This document shows, piece after piece, positions 2,683-42,117 of a stretch of 64,000 nt of DNA (positions are counted from its first letter, which is position 1; each line of letters begins with the position of its first letter). Below the pieces are notes generated by a model. That model ran no database searches, was not told the origin of the DNA, and saw only the letters and a program-made list of their open reading frames with translations. The DNA is taken from positions 15,320 to 79,319 of IMG/VR virus record IMGVR_UViG_3300017963_000033; one strand, written 5' to 3'. Source of the DNA: a virus. The translations under genes were made by a program, and so were the position numbers.

Positions 2683-3024
2683 ATGACAGAGGCAGAAGAA
2701 ATGACGGAGTTACAGTCACTAGATGATGCAGTCCCATTCCTGGGACACTACATTGTCTGGCGTCAACACGATTCTCTTTGGGAACCAACCCATTGGAATA
2801 CATACCGTGGCTACCTAGAGCGCGTAAAACAACCATATCGTGGGCTCGGGATGGGGTATCCCATCGTGAGGGAAATCATAAACAATGTGCATTCTATGAG
2901 CGCCATCGCAGAGGGAAAGATCACTAAAGGCAACAGGATGCAGGTGCGTTTGGCATCCCAAAATGAAATCGCAAGCATGGAACTGTCCTATGGGAGGAAG
3001 CCGCTGGGGGAGGAAGCCGCATGA
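2683..3024 (+). CDS. hypothetical protein
   Basis: SD GAGGAG, tightly packed with neighbours. Confidence 0.6.
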   Translation: MTEAEEMTELQSLDDAVPFLGHYIVWRQHDSLWEPTHWNTYRGYLERVKQPYRGLGMGYPIVREIINNVHSMSAIAEGKITKGNRMQVRLASQNEIASMELSYGRKPLGEEAA

Positions 3025-3876: not shown

Positions 3877-4202
3877 TGGCATCACCAGAGAAGCACGAAA
3901 CCCATTGCCCAAATCCGCAATGCGCAGACATCGTAGCCAGCCATGGGGAACCGTATCACCGAGTTTATCCCTCGCATGATAAGGATTATGTGGCTCGGTG
4001 TGAACAATGCGGGGGGAGACTGACCCATGATGGCAAGTGGGTCTACATCTGTGTGACCTGCAACAAGGAGGTTGATGAACTGTTTGGCCTATTCGTCCCC
4101 CACAACTGCAAGGAGTGCCAGCAGAACTTGCTGGATGAGCAGCGGCGTTCGGGGAACATCTGTGGGATGTGCCGACAACCACGGGCACTGTGCTGTTGCT
4201 GA
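3876..4202 (+). CDS. multi Zn-ribbon hypothetical protein
   Basis: repeated CxxC. Confidence 0.6.
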   Translation: MASPEKHETHCPNPQCADIVASHGEPYHRVYPSHDKDYVARCEQCGGRLTHDGKWVYICVTCNKEVDELFGLFVPHNCKECQQNLLDEQRRSGNICGMCRQPRALCCC

Positions 4203-8155: not shown

Positions 8156-8401
8156 ATGGAGGTCTTGCCCAGTTATGACGCTGGCCAGAAAGGAGACCTC
8201 TTGCAAGCGCAGGAATTGCTGGCAGAGATGTCGAGAATGGCAACCCAGGTGAGTGCCCTCCTCGGGCGCAACCTGACCGTCAAGGGAGTCAACGGGACAA
8301 GCCAGGTAGAGATGGATGCTATCTACCAGGCCCATTGCCTGGTGCCCACCGGGGCCATCATGCGAACTAGCCAGTGGGTCAGGGAGGCGATTCGCCAATG
8401 A
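8156..8401 (+). CDS. hypothetical protein
   Basis: ORF coupled to ruvC. Confidence 0.5.
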   Translation: MEVLPSYDAGQKGDLLQAQELLAEMSRMATQVSALLGRNLTVKGVNGTSQVEMDAIYQAHCLVPTGAIMRTSQWVREAIRQ

Positions 8402-17440: not shown

Positions 17441-18074
17441 GGACAGGCACTGGGCCTGACCAGAAAGGAGACTCTGAATGAGTGAGCGTTTAGGAGGATG
17501 CGCGGAGGCGTTGCGCGTCGTGGCCTTGATTGTGTTGGTAGTTGGCCTTGTCGTCCTCATCGGGCTGGGCATCATCGTTTATGGAGATGCCCATGAGAAG
17601 CGGAGTGCCGCCATCGACACTCAGGCCAGGGAGAAAACAGCCCAGACGGAGATTGCCTGGAACGGGATAACCGAACGCACCGCCACCGAAGAGGAAGGCA
17701 AGACTAAGCGCACTGCCATCGAAGAGGAAGGCAAGACTGAGCGCCAGTTGAACCAGTTGAACCATGAGAAATTTCTACTGATCTGGGCAGAACAATCCTG
17801 GGAACAACGGCTTGTCATGTTGGCTGAAATCACCAGAGGTATGACCTCAGAGGAGCGCCAAGCACTCCTGCACATGATGAACGCCTATGAGGCTGGAAAC
17901 ACTGCTGAGGATCGCAATTGGACCCAAATCTTCGCCTGGGCATGGGCAATCTTCGGTGCCATCCTGGTGTTTTGGTTCCTGGGACGCCCATTGCTCAAGC
18001 GGGTCTTTATCTCTATGCCATGGGGATGGTAGTGAGCAGTGGTGGACAGGCACTGGGCCTGACCAGAAAGGAGA
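17441..18074 (+). repeat. perfect 31-bp direct repeat (17441-17471 and 18044-18074) flanking one gene
   Basis: GGACAGGCACTGGGCCTGACCAGAAAGGAGA twice. Confidence 0.9.
17478..18032 (+). CDS. 2-TM coiled-coil membrane protein
   Basis: TM at both ends; internal 11-aa duplication (RTAxEEEGKTx). Confidence 0.65.
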   Translation: MSERLGGCAEALRVVALIVLVVGLVVLIGLGIIVYGDAHEKRSAAIDTQAREKTAQTEIAWNGITERTATEEEGKTKRTAIEEEGKTERQLNQLNHEKFLLIWAEQSWEQRLVMLAEITRGMTSEERQALLHMMNAYEAGNTAEDRNWTQIFAWAWAIFGAILVFWFLGRPLLKRVFISMPWGW

Positions 18075-38762: not shown

Positions 38763-39499
38763 ACCTCCCACGGGGCCAGCAGGCCATCCTTGCGCATCTT
38801 TTCCACATCTCCCGGCTCAATTTCAGCCGTCAGTAGTTTTCCCGAGTCCCCCCCGCGCATGGCCAGACATACGCGAAGCGGCCATTGTCTAGTGCCCAGG
38901 ACGATGACCTCCTGGTAATGCGACAGCCGCACGGTTCCCTGTAACTCGACTTCGTGGGGCGATTCCCCAGGAATCAGGACCTGGCGCAGGTGCTGCTTAC
39001 GCCAGAACCCCGGCATCAAACTCAGGTGGTAGGGTGAACCCGGCATCGACTTGACCAGGTCCAAGCGGCCCACGTGCCCGTAGGCTTGCATCCCCATGGC
39101 ATAGAGCCGGTCCCCACAAACATCCATCTTGGCGACGTACTCAAATTGGAGCATGTAGCGGTAGAGGATGTCCAGGGCCTCGCTGTCCACCGGCCTGATG
39201 GGCCACATATCCTCCAGGAGCAGCAGAAAGACCTCCTCCTGCCGCTCATCCAGAAACTTGATGAGGGCATCAGACCACTTGTCGAATGGATACATTTCCT
39301 GGGGTCCGATGCTGTGGAAGGTCCAGGATTCTGGCAGGTCAAAGGTGGGCTGGCTGAATCCTCCCACCACGACCTTGGGCATGGGTTTCCAGTATCGCTC
39401 CATCAGCCACGCGAGGGGCCTGAGCGCCGGCAGGTACTTGTCGCATGTCGTGACAAAGATGGTGTACTCAGCCACGACCACCCCCAAACCGCGCCTCAT
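38759..39499 (-). CDS. putative GT-A fold glycosyltransferase
   Basis: TCDKY, WSD.L, LLLLED, FWRK, ESPHEVE. Confidence 0.55.
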   Translation of the reverse strand: MRRGLGVVVAEYTIFVTTCDKYLPALRPLAWLMERYWKPMPKVVVGGFSQPTFDLPESWTFHSIGPQEMYPFDKWSDALIKFLDERQEEVFLLLLEDMWPIRPVDSEALDILYRYMLQFEYVAKMDVCGDRLYAMGMQAYGHVGRLDLVKSMPGSPYHLSLMPGFWRKQHLRQVLIPGESPHEVELQGTVRLSHYQEVIVLGTRQWPLRVCLAMRGGDSGKLLTAEIEPGDVEKMRKDGLLAPWEV

Positions 39500-40499
39500 A
39501 GTCTGCGAACATATCCCGCAGGGTGGTTTCCATCGGCGTATCTGGTATCCATCCTAGTAGGTCCCTGAGCCGTGTGGTGTCGGGGGCGCGTCTGGCGTGT
39601 CCATCCGGTTTGCTGGTGTCGAATTGATAGGCGATGTCTTTGCCCGAGAGGGTCACAATCGACTGGACAAGGTCGGAGATCCTGATCTCCTGCCTGTGCC
39701 CGATGTTGATTGGCCCAGCGTCCCACGCCGCTTGGCAATAGGCCAGGCGCACGAGAGCCCTGGCGATGTCTCTGACATCAACCAATGTGCGTGTTTGATT
39801 GCCGCTGCCCCAGACTTTCAGCGGATTCTCTCCCTCCATGACGCGCCTGATCAAGGCCGGCGCAACGTGGGACGCATTGGGTTCGTAGTGATCTCTTGGT
39901 CCAAAGACGTTAAAAAGGCGCACGATGACGCACGGGACATTGTGCTCTCTGTAAAGGTGCCGCACCATCTGCTCCCCTACCCACTTGGCGATTCCATAGC
40001 CATGGTTTGTGGGCTCTGGATTGCAGATGTCGCCCGCGCTTTCTGGTGTCGGGACCGGCGCGTCCCCCGGATAGACACAGGCAGTGCTGATATAGACAAA
40101 CAGACGTGGTTTGCAGATTCGCACCGAGTCGATCATCGACTGGTTGATGGCCAGGTTCGCCCGCAGCATCTCGTATTGGTTGCGCCGGTTGTACTCGATG
40201 CCGGCAACCTTGGCTGCCAGGTGCCAGACCACGTCCGTTGGCTTACAAGGATAGCCAGTATGTTCAAGGTTCCGGGGCTGCAATCGTACCTGCCCCGTTT
40301 TCATGGACCCATACAGGTTGTCCATCTTTCCTCGGGAAAAGTCATCAACCACGGTTACGCTGTGGTGGATGTCCACCAGGGCATCTACCAGATGGGACCC
40401 GATGAATCCAGCTCCCCCAGTGACGATGTGATTGCCGCCACTTGGAGGCACATCCCCTTCCCACTGCGGCAACGGTGTCGCAGTCGTTCTGTCTCCCAT
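39468..40499 (-). CDS. NAD-dependent epimerase/reductase, GDP-fucose synthase/ColC-like
   Basis: TGGAGFIG, STACVYP, YGIAK, SHVAPAL, VWGSG, KPDG. Confidence 0.85.
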   Translation of the reverse strand: MGDRTTATPLPQWEGDVPPSGGNHIVTGGAGFIGSHLVDALVDIHHSVTVVDDFSRGKMDNLYGSMKTGQVRLQPRNLEHTGYPCKPTDVVWHLAAKVAGIEYNRRNQYEMLRANLAINQSMIDSVRICKPRLFVYISTACVYPGDAPVPTPESAGDICNPEPTNHGYGIAKWVGEQMVRHLYREHNVPCVIVRLFNVFGPRDHYEPNASHVAPALIRRVMEGENPLKVWGSGNQTRTLVDVRDIARALVRLAYCQAAWDAGPINIGHRQEIRISDLVQSIVTLSGKDIAYQFDTSKPDGHARRAPDTTRLRDLLGWIPDTPMETTLRDMFADYEARFGGGRG

Positions 40500-40680
40500 T
40501 TCTGTCTCCTTTCTCAAACGGGGGTGGTGCAGAAAGGAGACTCAAAATCACCACCCCCGCGACTTGCCCCGAAGGGCAAGCATGATTCCCAACCGCCCGG
40601 ACAATCTCCTTTCTTGGCGGCATTCACCTTTTGAAGGGGAGGATCAGTTGCCTGACCCTCCCATCATCACGGTTCAACTA
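40500..40680 (-). promoter_or_regulatory. structured intercistronic RNA with anti-SD and decoy SD
   Basis: four hairpins (GCAA and UUCG tetraloops); loop GTCTCCTTTCT complementary to the SD AGAAAGGAGAC and to a second copy in another loop. Confidence 0.65.
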
Positions 40681-40683
40681 CAA

Positions 40684-42117
40684 CTACCGCTGGCCACCAG
40701 GGAACCAGACCGCGTAGCGCGTCCCAGCCGTCCGGTAGCTCACGCCACCATCAACATGGTACGGGCTGGAGAAGTCAGGTTCGCGCAGGTGCTGGAGCGG
40801 CGTGTAGCGCACATTCTGGAGCGCACCAGCAAGCTGGGGCGTCCTCAACACCACACGCTGTTCCGTCTTGAGCGATAGGCTGTAGCACCATCGCTGTTCC
40901 AGGTACGACCAGGAATATGCGCCGGCATCGGTGTGGAACCAGGACTGCCGGTTCCGCAACTGCGCCTCATCGGCAGCCGCCTGCCGATAATCCACATACT
41001 CCCGATACGTCACCGGGAACCCGCCGTTGACCGTGATCGGCACGGCGTAGATGGTGCTGGCAAACTCGCCGGCTGCCAGGTTGGCGTTGTTGGCGTTGTT
41101 GTGCTCAAAGATGCCGGTGTCCTCGATGACATCGTACCAGATGCCGTTGATGGGGATCTGGTTGCGGGTGCGCATGTCGTCGCGCATCTGGACGTTGACA
41201 TTGTCGTTGATGACGGCAGCGTTGTAGCCCACTTGGGCCGTTTTGCAGCGATTGGTCAGGTAGGAGCAAGGCCAGCAGGCCGACAGCTCGAACCACAACT
41301 GGGGACGCATGGCGAGGACCCAGCGCACCGGCTGCAAGCCAGTGTCGGTGGCCAGCGATTCCAGGTAGTACATCATCGCGCTCAGGTACTCGACAATCTC
41401 CAGCGTGGTGCCGCACACGTCGTTGTAGGCAAAGTTCTTGATGTCCGAGTCCAGCGAGGCGCAGGCACCGCCACTGGCAGCATCCACCTGCCCGGTGGCA
41501 ATCTGCACCGTCAGTCCGGGGAAGGTCCCGGCAGCCACAGTGCCCTGCCATAGGTCGGTGTGCAGGGCCATCTCCATGTACGCGCCTGTTTTCAGCATCT
41601 CCATCTTGGTGATGACATTCAGCGCGTCCTCGGTTGTGATGTTGCCTGGGGTGAGGTTGGTGCCTCCGAGAACAGCATCCCCGACGAATCGCAGGTCTCG
41701 GAAGTCGCCCCGGTTGATCCGCAACATCACCTTGTCCATCTCGATCTCCTGGGTATCGAACCTCTTGAGACCGAAATAGGCGGTCAGTTGGCACCCTTTT
41801 TCGTAGCCTGTTGGGGCCGCCGCACAGGCGTTGGTCGGCTGGGTGCCGCTCGGGGCCGTAAAGCCGGTCAGCGTCCAATACCTGGGGTCCTCGTCCACGG
41901 ACGGGAACAGCGGCAGGACGCTGGAAATCGACTTGGGCCTGACATAGGTGCTGAACACATCGGGTTCCGCACCGAGTTGGGCAAAGACACCGCCGAGGCC
42001 ATGCAGCTTCTGGGCCGTCATCACCCCGCCTGCGGTGTGTTTTTGCAGGTCCATCTCCTTGCGGAATTCCGTAATGCTTTTCTCCAGAAAGTCCATGAAC
42101 AGTAGATCGTTACTCAT
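40684..42117 (-). CDS. major capsid protein
   Basis: size, position after protease/scaffold, strong codon bias, LWQG..FPGL and EQRVVLRTPQLAG motifs. Confidence 0.8.
   Translation of the reverse strand: MSNDLLFMDFLEKSITEFRKEMDLQKHTAGGVMTAQKLHGLGGVFAQLGAEPDVFSTYVRPKSISSVLPLFPSVDEDPRYWTLTGFTAPSGTQPTNACAAAPTGYEKGCQLTAYFGLKRFDTQEIEMDKVMLRINRGDFRDLRFVGDAVLGGTNLTPGNITTEDALNVITKMEMLKTGAYMEMALHTDLWQGTVAAGTFPGLTVQIATGQVDAASGGACASLDSDIKNFAYNDVCGTTLEIVEYLSAMMYYLESLATDTGLQPVRWVLAMRPQLWFELSACWPCSYLTNRCKTAQVGYNAAVINDNVNVQMRDDMRTRNQIPINGIWYDVIEDTGIFEHNNANNANLAAGEFASTIYAVPITVNGGFPVTYREYVDYRQAAADEAQLRNRQSWFHTDAGAYSWSYLEQRWCYSLSLKTEQRVVLRTPQLAGALQNVRYTPLQHLREPDFSSPYHVDGGVSYRTAGTRYAVWFPGGQR

What the first reader, a model, noticed from the sequence alone, without database searches (positions are those of the whole stretch)
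40500..40680. Candidate bistable RNA switch (anti-SD loop, decoy SD) gating the glycan locus
Seen on the minus-strand transcript, in order: a GCAA hairpin, a stem whose loop holds AGAAAGGAGATT (40603-40614), a UUCG hairpin, a long GC stem whose loop holds GTCTCCTTTCT (40531-40541), then the real SD AGAAAGGAGAC (40504-40514) and the ATG. The anti-SD can pair with the decoy (kissing loops, ON) or with the real SD (pseudoknot, OFF). Inference: an undescribed translational switch tuning glycosylation enzymes relative to capsid. The effector is unknown.
Basis: partly seen in the sequence, partly recalled or inferred. Interest (0 to 1): 0.75.

Follow-up and report, generated by a model that had tools for sequence, protein, structure and literature searches.

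The report
Phage leader RNA with anti-SD loop
Between the capsid gene and a sugar-modification operon of an uncultured phage lies a conserved folded RNA leader whose hairpin loop mimics the ribosome's own mRNA-binding tail, most likely to hold down translation of the enzymes; it matches no described RNA family, but how it works is still unproven.

Summary
On the minus strand, 40683-40497, lie a GCAA hairpin, a hairpin with AGAAAGGAGAUU in its loop, a UUCG hairpin, a 12-bp GC stem with GUCUCCUUUCU in its loop, then the real SD AGAAAGGAGAC and the ATG. AGAAAGGAGAC is this phage's standard ribosome-binding site. Its reverse complement occurs once in 64 kb.

The element is conserved. A covariance model finds one copy in ten distinct relatives whose capsid protein is at least 72% identical, and none in about 75 more distant ones. 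The long stem is 95.5% paired and 16 of 17 pairs change on both sides. G.U outnumbers A.C 24 to 3, so it is an RNA on the gene strand. The loop CCUCCUUUC and the downstream SD are kept in every copy, and an SD-like block sits in a small upstream hairpin loop in 7 of 10.

The upstream gene is an HK97-fold capsid protein. An SDR epimerase follows directly or after one small ORF. Rfam has no match.

Best reading: a cis-acting translational attenuator or switch using anti-SD:SD pairing. Near-equal stability of two states is not conserved (0 to 17.6 kcal/mol), direct covariation of the loop pairings is thin, and nothing suggests a ligand pocket. I class it as a new variant of a known kind.

The parts
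40684..42117 (-). Upstream gene: major capsid protein, 477 aa, HK97 fold
   Evidence: No Pfam or PHROG hit. The AlphaFold2 model has pLDDT 77.7 and pTM 0.75. Foldseek matches phage capsids (PhiTE, A-1(L), Mic1, HK97) with probability 1.00 and E about 2e-9.
40637..40662 (-). HP1: 11-bp hairpin with a GCAA loop just after the capsid stop. It looks like a terminator or 3' stabiliser but has no U-run.
   Evidence: Folds at -21.6 kcal/mol. The consensus scan does not call it a terminator. Equivalent hairpins follow the capsid gene in L001, L002, L006, L010, L012 and L013.
40593..40620 (-). HP2: CCGCC/GGCGG stem whose loop shows the SD-like 'decoy' AGAAAGGAGAUU (40603-40614). No start codon lies at working distance.
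   Evidence: An SD-like block lies 7-12 nt upstream of the conserved GCGG, in a small hairpin loop, in 7 of 10 copies, with mean unpaired probability 0.62-0.87.
40582..40590 (-). Window-specific insert GGGAAUCAU. It can pair with the top of the HP4 5' arm (GUGAUU) and so open HP4.
   Evidence: This segment is gapped in all other copies. It is used in the alternative fold that pairs anti-SD with SD at +2.9 kcal/mol.
40562..40581 (-). HP3: 8-bp hairpin with a UUCG tetraloop
   Evidence: Folds at -13.4 kcal/mol. It is kept in all 10 copies with UUCG, CUUG or UUUG loops; two of its four modelled pairs change on both sides and 97.5% of cells are paired.
40518..40560 (-). HP4: 12-bp GC stem with a 19-nt loop
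   Evidence: Folds at -26.0 kcal/mol. In relatives the stem is 16-20 bp; 16 of 17 aligned pairs change on both sides and 95.5% of cells are paired, against 37-50% in slid-register controls.
40531..40541 (-). Anti-SD GUCUCCUUUCU in the HP4 loop. It is the exact complement of the phage's 11-nt RBS consensus. Relatives carry UUUCCUCCUUUC, which resembles the 3' tail of 16S rRNA.
   Evidence: It is the only reverse complement of the RBS 10-mer in 64 kb. The loop sequence is invariant in 9 of 10 copies while the stems vary.
40504..40514 (-). The real Shine-Dalgarno sequence AGAAAGGAGAC of the epimerase gene, 3 nt after the foot of HP4
   Evidence: At least 8 contiguous pairs with the loop in 10 of 10 copies.
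39468..40499 (-). Downstream gene: SDR NAD-dependent epimerase/dehydratase, the first gene of the glycan operon (ATG at 40497-40499)
   Evidence: Pfam PF01370, E = 7e-50. The same gene follows the element directly in L002, L006, L009 and L013, and after one small ORF in L003, L008 and L011.

Best explanation
This is a conserved, single-copy structured leader RNA of the phage's glycan operon. It lies just downstream of the major capsid gene and is transcribed on the gene strand.

Its core is a tetraloop hairpin followed by a long stable hairpin whose stem sequence is free to vary. The loop of that hairpin shows a copy of the 3' tail of 16S rRNA (an anti-SD), 3 to 7 nt upstream of the operon's real Shine-Dalgarno sequence.

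The most likely mechanism (inferred) is attenuation of translation in cis. The loop anti-SD pairs with the adjacent SD. This could be a partial loop-to-tail pseudoknot covering the GGAGG core. Where the long stem can be opened, as in the window and L013, it could be a plain anti-SD:SD hairpin. Either way, ribosome loading on the enzyme operon is kept low compared with the capsid gene.

The upstream SD-like block, shown in its own small hairpin loop, is an accessory part. It may compete for the same anti-SD loop and so relieve repression. It may instead hold a 30S subunit and act as a STAB-SD-like stabiliser of the 5' end. It may do both.

Shown: the structure, its conservation, its strand, the complementarity and the gene order. 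Inferred: which pairings actually form, and their effect on translation. There is no sign of a small-molecule ligand.
For: Anatomy is confirmed.

Conservation:
- Model R1 finds exactly one copy in 10 distinct loci of the capsid lineage, at 31 to 110 bits, and none in relatives with capsid identity of 60% or less.
- It is single-copy in two complete genomes.

Covariation:
- 93.2% of cells are paired.
- 21 of 25 pairs change on both sides.
- 0 of 500 shuffles reach the observed values.
- Slid-register controls give 37-50% paired.

Strand: G.U plus U.G total 24, against 3 for A.C plus C.A.

Loop and SD:
- The loop CCUCCUUUC is invariant while the stems vary.
- Loop x SD duplexes are -13.7 to -19.9 kcal/mol in all copies.
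- At least 8 contiguous pairs form in 10 of 10 copies, and the window has two compensatory changes, C-G to U-A and U-A to G-C. These match its own GGAGAC-type SD rather than the canonical CACCUCC tail assumed.

Alternative fold: the anti-SD:SD fold costs +2.9 kcal/mol in the window and is the MFE in L013.

Other phages: hairpins with an anti-SD loop directly before an SD recur in unrelated phage contexts, and in L204 and L172 no SD-like block is seen in the printed upstream sequence (L204, L229, L172/L207, L017). This points to the loop plus the real SD as the minimal working unit.

Gene order: capsid gene upstream, epimerase operon downstream.

Precedent: the icaR anti-SD motif pairs with its own SD, blocks ribosome loading and creates an RNase III site (PMC3868564).
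Against: - In nested folds the SD is mostly unpaired (mean unpaired probability 0.4-0.9 in 9 of 10 copies), and the anti-SD:SD fold costs 7-17.6 kcal/mol in 8 of 10. Repression would therefore need a tertiary pseudoknot.
- The linker from the foot of HP4 to the SD is only 4-7 nt, against a 12-20 bp stem. A full coaxial H-type pseudoknot is sterically doubtful and only partial pairing seems possible (my geometric reasoning, not computed).
- Beyond the 8-bp core that the 16S rRNA would impose anyway, loop-SD covariation rests on one lineage, the window. L001, L002 and L008 carry an uncompensated C.A mismatch.
- There are no expression or probing data.
- The host is unknown, so the 16S tail sequence is assumed.
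Confidence: 0.5

Rival explanations
1. One reading: a true two-state switch. The anti-SD loop of HP4 either kisses the decoy SD loop of HP2 (real SD free, ON) or pairs with the real SD (OFF). An unknown effector sets the balance; it could be a ligand, a protein, a 30S subunit, or a ribosome terminating on the capsid gene.
For: - The decoy sits in a hairpin loop in all 7 copies that carry it near HP3.
- The two duplexes are close in energy in the window, -17.4 against -19.9 kcal/mol.
- In L001 and L002 the decoy duplex is the stronger one: -18.0 against -13.7, and -16.1 against -14.6 kcal/mol.
- The 3' strand of the HP2 stem (GGCGGUU) can alternatively form the outer stem of HP3 with CCGU, which gives a second pair of exclusive helices.
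- In L003 and L008 the decoy starts 2-4 nt after the capsid stop codon, where a terminating ribosome would cover it.
Against: - The decoy is not at that position in L006, L010 and L011. There the only SD-like block is the working RBS of a small ORF more than 100 nt upstream.
- No SD-like block is seen in the upstream sequence printed for the L204 and L172 modules.
- The energy gaps between states range from 0 to 17.6 kcal/mol.
- No conserved unpaired nucleotides could form a ligand pocket.
- Rfam has no match.
- No covariation is specific to the loop-loop pairing.
Confidence: 0.2
2. An mRNA stability and processing module. The SD-like block would be a STAB-SD-type 30S landing site that blocks 5'-to-3' decay. 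HP3 and HP4 would be protective or processing hairpins (for example RNase III or RNase Y) that define and stabilise the 5' end of the operon mRNA after it is cut from the capsid transcript. The anti-SD loop would only modulate 30S occupancy.
For: - In L002 and L013 a near-consensus promoter (TTGATT or TTGACG, 17 nt, TATAAT) puts the SD-like block roughly 10-20 nt from the predicted 5' end.
- 4 of 7 decoys have no start codon at working distance.
- STAB-SD is described as an SD-like sequence that does not start translation but binds the 16S 3' end and blocks RNase J1 (PMC4113751).
- The HP4 stems are long perfect duplexes of 12-20 bp.
Against: - It does not explain why a 12-nt anti-SD loop is invariant while its stem drifts.
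- A stabiliser needs no complement of itself nearby.
- It is unknown whether the host has RNase J.
Confidence: 0.15
3. A trans-acting or protein-bound element. The loop could act like the UCCC loops of staphylococcal sRNAs and pair with the SDs of other phage mRNAs, all of which share AGAAAGGAGAC. Alternatively the hairpin could be the operator of a phage RNA-binding repressor.
For: - The window's loop is the exact 11-nt complement of the RBS consensus found before about 13 genes.
- C-rich loop motifs that target SDs in trans are known (PMC3868564).
Against: - No terminator separates HP4 from the SD, so the RNA continues into the operon.
- The element always sits 3-7 nt from an SD.
- A loop that matches every SD has no specificity.
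Confidence: 0.08
4. No dedicated function: a relic. The decoy would be the leftover RBS of a lost small ORF, and the hairpins would be ordinary intergenic terminators or insulators.
For: - In L006, L010, L011 and L012 a Cys-rich small ORF with its own RBS lies between the capsid gene and the element, and it is truncated to different extents.
- GC hairpins before SDs are common in these genomes.
Against: - The loop is invariant over 10 diverged copies.
- The stems show strong strand-specific covariation.
- The decoy keeps a constant distance to GCGG in 7 of 10 copies.
- The window's loop has changed to match its own SD.
Confidence: 0.05

Closest known systems
icaR mRNA anti-SD motif (UCCCCUG) of Staphylococcus aureus, and the UCCC-loop sRNAs (RNAIII, RsaE)
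   Same: A C-rich anti-SD motif pairs with a Shine-Dalgarno sequence, blocks ribosome loading and can create an RNase III substrate (PMC3868564). In icaR the partner SD lies on the same mRNA.
   Different: Here the anti-SD is 9-12 nt long, copies the 16S tail, and sits in the loop of a long hairpin 3-7 nt upstream of its SD. In icaR the motif is in the 3' UTR, hundreds of nt from the SD. Here a second SD-like loop lies upstream, and the setting is a phage.
STAB-SD 5' mRNA stabiliser (cry3A of Bacillus thuringiensis)
   Same: An SD-like sequence in a 5' leader that does not start translation and is complementary to the 16S 3' end (PMC4113751). In L002 and L013 it lies close to the predicted 5' end.
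   Different: STAB-SD has no partner anti-SD nearby. Here the block sits in a hairpin loop and is matched by a complementary loop about 60 nt downstream. Binding of 30S and any stabilising effect are untested.
Three-part expression platforms of translational riboswitches and attenuators (anti-anti-SD, anti-SD, SD)
   Same: The logic is the same: three mutually complementary segments in the order decoy, anti-SD, SD.
   Different: There is no aptamer and no conserved ligand pocket. The partners are shown in the loops of stable hairpins rather than as strands of alternative helices. Rfam has no match.
Pseudoknot translational operators (rpsO/S15, T4 gene 32, alpha-operon/S4; IncB/IncI-alpha repA-repZ activator pseudoknot).
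   Same: A hairpin loop pairs with sequence at or near the RBS.
   Different: In those systems the stems are short enough for a compact H-type fold and a protein or leader peptide controls the fold. Here stem 1 is 12-20 bp with a 4-7 nt linker, and no partner protein is known.

Membership tests
Riboswitch (any Rfam family) | Match to a curated aptamer model | tested here: not met
   In window 39500-41700 no Rfam match reached E < 1 or came near its gathering score. No match at gathering threshold in L003, L009, L013, L204 or L229.
Riboswitch (any Rfam family) | Conserved unpaired nucleotides in junctions or bulges that could form a ligand pocket | tested here: not met
   In the alignments, the conserved blocks outside helices are the anti-SD loop, the SD and the tetraloop, and the HP4 stem has essentially no internal loops.
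STAB-SD-type 5' stabiliser | An SD-like sequence in the leader, complementary to the 16S 3' end, that does not direct initiation | tested here: inconclusive
   An SD-like block is present in all copies. There is no start codon at working distance in the window, L001, L003 and L008. There is one in L002 and L013 (3-codon mini-ORFs) and in L009.
STAB-SD-type 5' stabiliser | Binds a 30S subunit and blocks 5'-to-3' exonuclease, raising mRNA half-life | not testable with these tools
   This needs toeprinting and half-life measurements. The host and its RNases are unknown.
SD-sequestering H-type pseudoknot | A hairpin loop complementary to the downstream RBS | tested here: met
   At least 8 contiguous pairs in 10 of 10 copies; duplexes of -13.7 to -19.9 kcal/mol.
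SD-sequestering H-type pseudoknot | Covariation of the loop-tail pairs, and loop lengths compatible with the fold | tested here: inconclusive
   Two compensatory changes in the window, but an uncompensated C.A mismatch in three copies. A 4-7 nt linker against a 12-20 bp stem 1 makes a full fold doubtful (geometric reasoning only).
Intrinsic terminator or attenuator | A GC stem followed by a U-run | tested here: not met
   HP4 is followed by A-rich linkers in 9 of 10 copies and by GUUUG in the window. The consensus scan calls no minus-strand terminator in 40300-41000.
RNA thermometer (ROSE or fourU type) | The SD is held in a weak, mismatched hairpin that melts as temperature rises | tested here: not met
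   The SD is mostly unpaired in nested folds. In the window the cost of the anti-SD:SD fold stays between 2.6 and 5.7 kcal/mol from 15 to 55 C and is highest at 55 C.

The most novel reading that the evidence does not exclude
The leader copies both halves of the ribosome's SD:anti-SD helix in two hairpin loops that kiss. This would make a compact tertiary fold that senses free 30S subunits. When a 30S subunit, or a ribosome terminating on the capsid gene, occupies the decoy, the anti-SD loop is released onto the real SD. Enzyme synthesis would then be tied to capsid translation or to ribosome availability. Alternatively the ring-like kissed fold blocks 5'-to-3' exonucleases in the way an xrRNA does. 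The same hairpin-loop anti-SD device in unrelated phages (L204, L229, L172, L017) would then be a widespread, unrecognised class of phage translational operator.
Probability: 0.15. Interest if true: 0.75.

Novelty: new variant of a known kind. Interest (0 to 1): 0.5.

Why it matters
Phages must make far more capsid protein than enzymes from neighbouring genes, and how uncultured phages set such ratios is largely unknown.

This element is a covariation-supported structured RNA placed exactly at that boundary. It has a very simple and legible logic: a copy of the 16S tail facing the operon's SD, plus a spare SD. Rfam has no match for it and my literature searches found no description. Similar hairpins turned up in unrelated phage contigs, so the device may be more general.

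If it does attenuate or switch translation, it would be a compact, portable part for tuning expression. It would also be a new family for annotating phage genomes. The claim can be tested with ordinary reporter and probing experiments.

Tried and rejected
- Rfam, with E-value threshold on the window region and gathering threshold on five related loci, gave nothing.
- blastn of the region against the GenBank phage collection gave no match.
- A pattern scan of IMG/VR for the tetraloop plus the loop gave 73 hits. Nearly all were the antisense of ordinary RBSs, and only the known relative was real.
- A scan for the loop plus an SD gave 90 hits. Seven had an enclosing stem: three were lineage copies and four were independent.
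- A scan for the window-type loop plus SD gave one unrelated inverted repeat in a jumbo-phage contig.
- A genome-contig scan with the capsid profile gave two short MAG contigs and no host information.
The DNA of about 35 further capsid relatives at 63-82% identity therefore could not be fetched. This is what limits the covariation test of the loop pairings.
- MAFFT plus RNAalifold misaligned the variable HP4 stems. I replaced that with a covariance-model alignment.
- A generic scan for any hairpin with CCUCC or CUCCU in the loop before an SD did not exceed control motifs at loose thresholds, 18 against 7-14. I make no claim that such hairpins are enriched.
- I rejected an opposite-strand gene using the loop as its RBS, because no start codon follows it on the plus strand (read).
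- I rejected a conserved uORF through HP3 and HP4. The window has an 11-codon frame there, but it is not conserved.
- I rejected a protein-binding DNA inverted repeat, because the stems vary freely and use strand-specific G.U pairs.
- The weak second R1 hit in G001 is an ordinary hairpin with no anti-SD loop.

Full report
**What is there**

I read the region on the minus strand. The 186 nt between the stop codon of ORF 40684-42117 and the ATG at 40499 contain four hairpins and two copies of the same purine block:

- HP1 (40637-40662): 11 bp with a GCAA loop.
- HP2 (40593-40620): CCGCC/GGCGG stem, with AGAAAGGAGAUU in the loop.
- HP3 (40562-40581): 8 bp with a UUCG loop.
- HP4 (40518-40560): 12 bp, with a 19-nt loop that holds GUCUCCUUUCU.
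- SD AGAAAGGAGAC (40504-40514), followed by the ATG.

RNAfold recovers all four hairpins. The MFE is -82.6 kcal/mol, z = -3.5, and 0 of 200 shuffles fold as well. The single-hairpin energies are -21.6, -9.3, -13.4 and -26.0 kcal/mol.

**What is and is not unusual**

AGAAAGGAGA(C) is simply this phage's ribosome-binding site. It occurs 16 times with at most one mismatch, against 2.4 expected, almost always a few bases before a start codon on the coding strand.

Two things are unusual:

- Its reverse complement occurs exactly once in 64 kb, in the HP4 loop, 16 nt upstream of a real SD.
- An extra SD-like copy sits in HP2 with no start codon at working distance.

The loop can pair with the real SD over 11 Watson-Crick pairs (-19.9 kcal/mol with flanks). 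It can pair with the HP2 copy over 10 Watson-Crick pairs plus wobbles (-17.4 kcal/mol).

**Context**

The window is part of a complete 79.3-kb virus record with terminal repeats.

- The upstream 477-aa protein has no Pfam or PHROG hit. Its AlphaFold2 model (pLDDT 77.7) matches HK97-fold phage capsids with Foldseek probability 1.00. It is the major capsid protein.
- The downstream gene is an SDR epimerase/dehydratase (PF01370, E = 7e-50). A DegT-family aminotransferase lies further downstream in the same cluster.
- No sigma-70-type promoter and no canonical terminator are called in 40300-41000 on the minus strand. In this phage the element therefore lies inside a read-through transcript.

**Conservation**

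Capsid homologues gave 5 viral and 80 metagenome loci. Reading downstream of the capsid stop codon showed the same layout in the closest relatives, with different stem sequences.

I built a covariance model from four copies. It finds exactly one copy in ten distinct loci: the window, L001, L002, L003, L006, L008, L009, L010, L011 and L013, at 31 to 110 bits. It finds none in the roughly 75 loci whose capsid is 60% identical or less. The element is single-copy in the two complete genomes that carry it and absent from a more distant one.

On the model-guided alignment:

- 93.2% of cells form standard pairs.
- 21 of 25 pairs change on both sides.
- 0 of 500 shuffles reach the observed values.
- Slid-register controls drop to 37-50% paired.
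- HP4 alone is 95.5% paired, and 16 of its 17 pairs change on both sides.

The alignment was fitted to the model, which favours the structure. Against that, each sequence also folds into the same hairpins on its own.

G.U plus U.G cells number 24, against 3 for A.C plus C.A. The helices therefore belong to an RNA of the gene strand, not to a DNA palindrome.

While the stems drift, the HP4 loop reads UUUCCUCCUUUC in nine copies and GAGUCUCCUUUCU in the window. Rfam has no match for the window copy or for the relatives.

**Gene order**

The epimerase follows the element directly in the window, L002, L006, L009 and L013. It follows after one small inserted ORF in L003, L008 and L011.

In L002, L006, L010, L011, L012 and L013 a near-consensus promoter lies between the capsid terminator hairpin and the leader (TTGACA-like, 17 nt, TATAAT). 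In several of these it is followed by a Cys-rich small ORF in various states of truncation.

**The decoy**

An SD-like block (GAAAGGAG or GAAAGGGG) lies 7-12 nt upstream of a conserved GCGG in 7 of 10 copies. In all seven it sits in the loop of a small hairpin, with mean unpaired probability 0.62-0.87. The stem sequences of those small hairpins are not homologous to each other.

Further details:

- The window, L001, L003 and L008 have no start codon at working distance.
- L002 and L013 have a 3-codon mini-ORF, and L009 has an out-of-frame start.
- In L006, L010 and L011 the only SD-like block is the working RBS of the small ORF, more than 100 nt upstream.
- In L002 and L013 the block lies roughly 10-20 nt from the predicted 5' end. 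This is the arrangement described for STAB-SD (PMC4113751).
- The GCGG that closes HP2 in some copies can alternatively pair with CCGU after HP3. I did not resolve which of the two forms.

**Do the loop pairings form?**

Complementarity is universal. Loop x SD is -13.7 to -19.9 kcal/mol and loop x decoy is -11.5 to -18.0 kcal/mol. At least 8 contiguous loop-SD pairs are present in 10 of 10 copies.

However, any SD pairs with a copy of the 16S tail, so this core is not independent evidence.

- Beyond the core, the window shows two compensatory changes (C-G to U-A, and U-A to G-C). They fit its own GGAGAC-type SD and would not pair with a canonical CACCUCC tail. The host's 16S tail is assumed here.
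- L001, L002 and L008 show an uncompensated C.A mismatch at the same position.
- The loop-SD helix is longer than the helix with the assumed 16S tail in 6 of 10 copies, equal in 3 and shorter in 1.
- In L001 and L002 the decoy pairs better than the real SD.

**Energetics**

In nested folds the SD is mostly open, with mean unpaired probability 0.4-0.9 in nine copies.

- Forcing anti-SD:SD at the expense of HP4 costs +2.9 kcal/mol in the window. There a window-specific insert, GGGAAUCAU, pairs with the top of the HP4 5' arm.
- It costs 0 in L013, where it is the MFE.
- It costs 7 to 17.6 kcal/mol in the other eight copies.

Near-equal stability of two nested states is thus not a conserved property. 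In most copies repression would need a tertiary loop-tail contact.

A full coaxial H-type pseudoknot is doubtful, because a 4-7 nt linker would have to span a 12-20 bp stem. Partial pairing of the GGAGG core looks feasible. This is my geometric reasoning and was not computed.

In the window the cost of the alternative fold stays between 2.6 and 5.7 kcal/mol from 15 to 55 C and is highest at 55 C. That is not thermometer-like behaviour.

**Other phages**

Strict pattern scans of IMG/VR, filtered for an enclosing stem, found hairpins with a CCUCCUUUC-type loop just before an SD and a start codon in unrelated contexts:

- L204: after an SSB gene; 18-bp stem.
- L229: before a UDG-DNA polymerase fusion.
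- L172/L207: before a small ORF.
- L017: a 16-bp terminator-like stem.

In the upstream sequence printed for L204 and L172 I saw no SD-like block. This suggests the minimal working unit is the loop plus the adjacent real SD. A loose generic scan did not exceed control motifs, so I claim recurrence, not enrichment.

**Verdict on mechanism**

The best-supported reading (confidence about 0.5) is a cis-acting translational attenuator or switch. The 16S-tail-like loop pairs with the operon's SD, and the upstream SD-like loop is an accessory that competes for the loop, binds a 30S subunit, or both.

The rivals are:

- A stability and processing module: about 0.15.
- A trans-acting or protein-bound element: about 0.08.
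- A relic with no dedicated function: about 0.05.

A small-molecule riboswitch is not supported.

The closest known systems are:

- The icaR anti-SD motif, which pairs with its own SD, blocks ribosome loading and creates an RNase III site (PMC3868564).
- STAB-SD (PMC4113751).
- The three-part expression platforms of riboswitches.
- Pseudoknot operators (these from my own knowledge).

The element differs from all of them. Both complementary partners are shown in the loops of stable hairpins, the anti-SD is a long copy of the 16S tail, and it lies only 3-7 nt from its SD.

**Limits**

- The host is unknown. One relative is filed in NCBI as a Planctomycetaceae MAG contig, but that record has terminal repeats and is a phage.
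- There are no experimental data.

Noticed in passing
L002:3813-3841; L013 about 3960-3990; L010 about 2900-2930; also L006, L011 and L012 downstream of the capsid gene: Several relatives carry a near-consensus sigma-70-type promoter (TTGACA-like, 17 nt, TATAAT) between the capsid terminator hairpin and the leader. The window has none. The operon is therefore separately transcribed in some phages and read through in others.
   Followed up: partly
L012:1731-2145; L006 about 2803-2866; L010 about 2958-3006: A small Cys-rich ORF (MPQ..C..C.., with repeated CxxC, zinc-ribbon-like) lies between the promoter and the leader. It is long in L012, where the contig ends inside it, and truncated to about 15-20 codons in L006 and L010. 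L013 and L002 instead have a 3-codon mini-ORF.
   Followed up: no
L204 (minus strand, about 8200-8290 of the oriented locus); L229; L172/L207; L017:494-537: Independent hairpins with an anti-SD (CCUCCUUUC-type) loop directly upstream of an SD and start codon, in unrelated phage contigs: after an SSB gene (L204), before a UDG-DNA polymerase fusion (L229), before a small ORF (L172/L207), and as a terminator-like stem (L017). This may be a recurrent device.
   Followed up: partly
window 17441-17471 and 18044-18074 (+): Two gene starts share an identical block of about 30 nt, GGACAGGCACTGGGCCTGACCAGAAAGGAGA, ending in the RBS. The second is followed by TTG, exactly as in the decoy (AGAAAGGAGATTG). 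This is a duplicated upstream region.
   Followed up: no
window, all gene starts (e.g. 1332, 6089, 8187, 9391, 17462, 28272, 35116): The phage uses an unusually uniform 11-nt RBS, AGAAAGGAGAC. Its last two bases would not pair with a canonical 16S tail (CACCUCC).
   Followed up: partly
L003/L007 contig (87.7 kb, terminal repeats) = P0019: The same contig is filed in NCBI as 'MAG: Planctomycetaceae bacterium'. It is a complete phage genome binned into a MAG. As a host hint it is weak.
   Followed up: no
L002:2875-3800: In L002 a gene on the opposite strand is inserted between the capsid gene and the leader. The capsid gene there ends with a hairpin whose two arms are themselves SD-like and anti-SD-like (GGAGAAGGAGA / TCTCCTTCTCC).
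   Followed up: no
L003:5536-5787; L008:3173-3370; L001:5734-: A small ORF starting MYEY (65-83 aa, no Pfam or PHROG hit) is inserted between the leader and the epimerase in three relatives. In L003 its stop overlaps the epimerase start (ATGA).
   Followed up: partly
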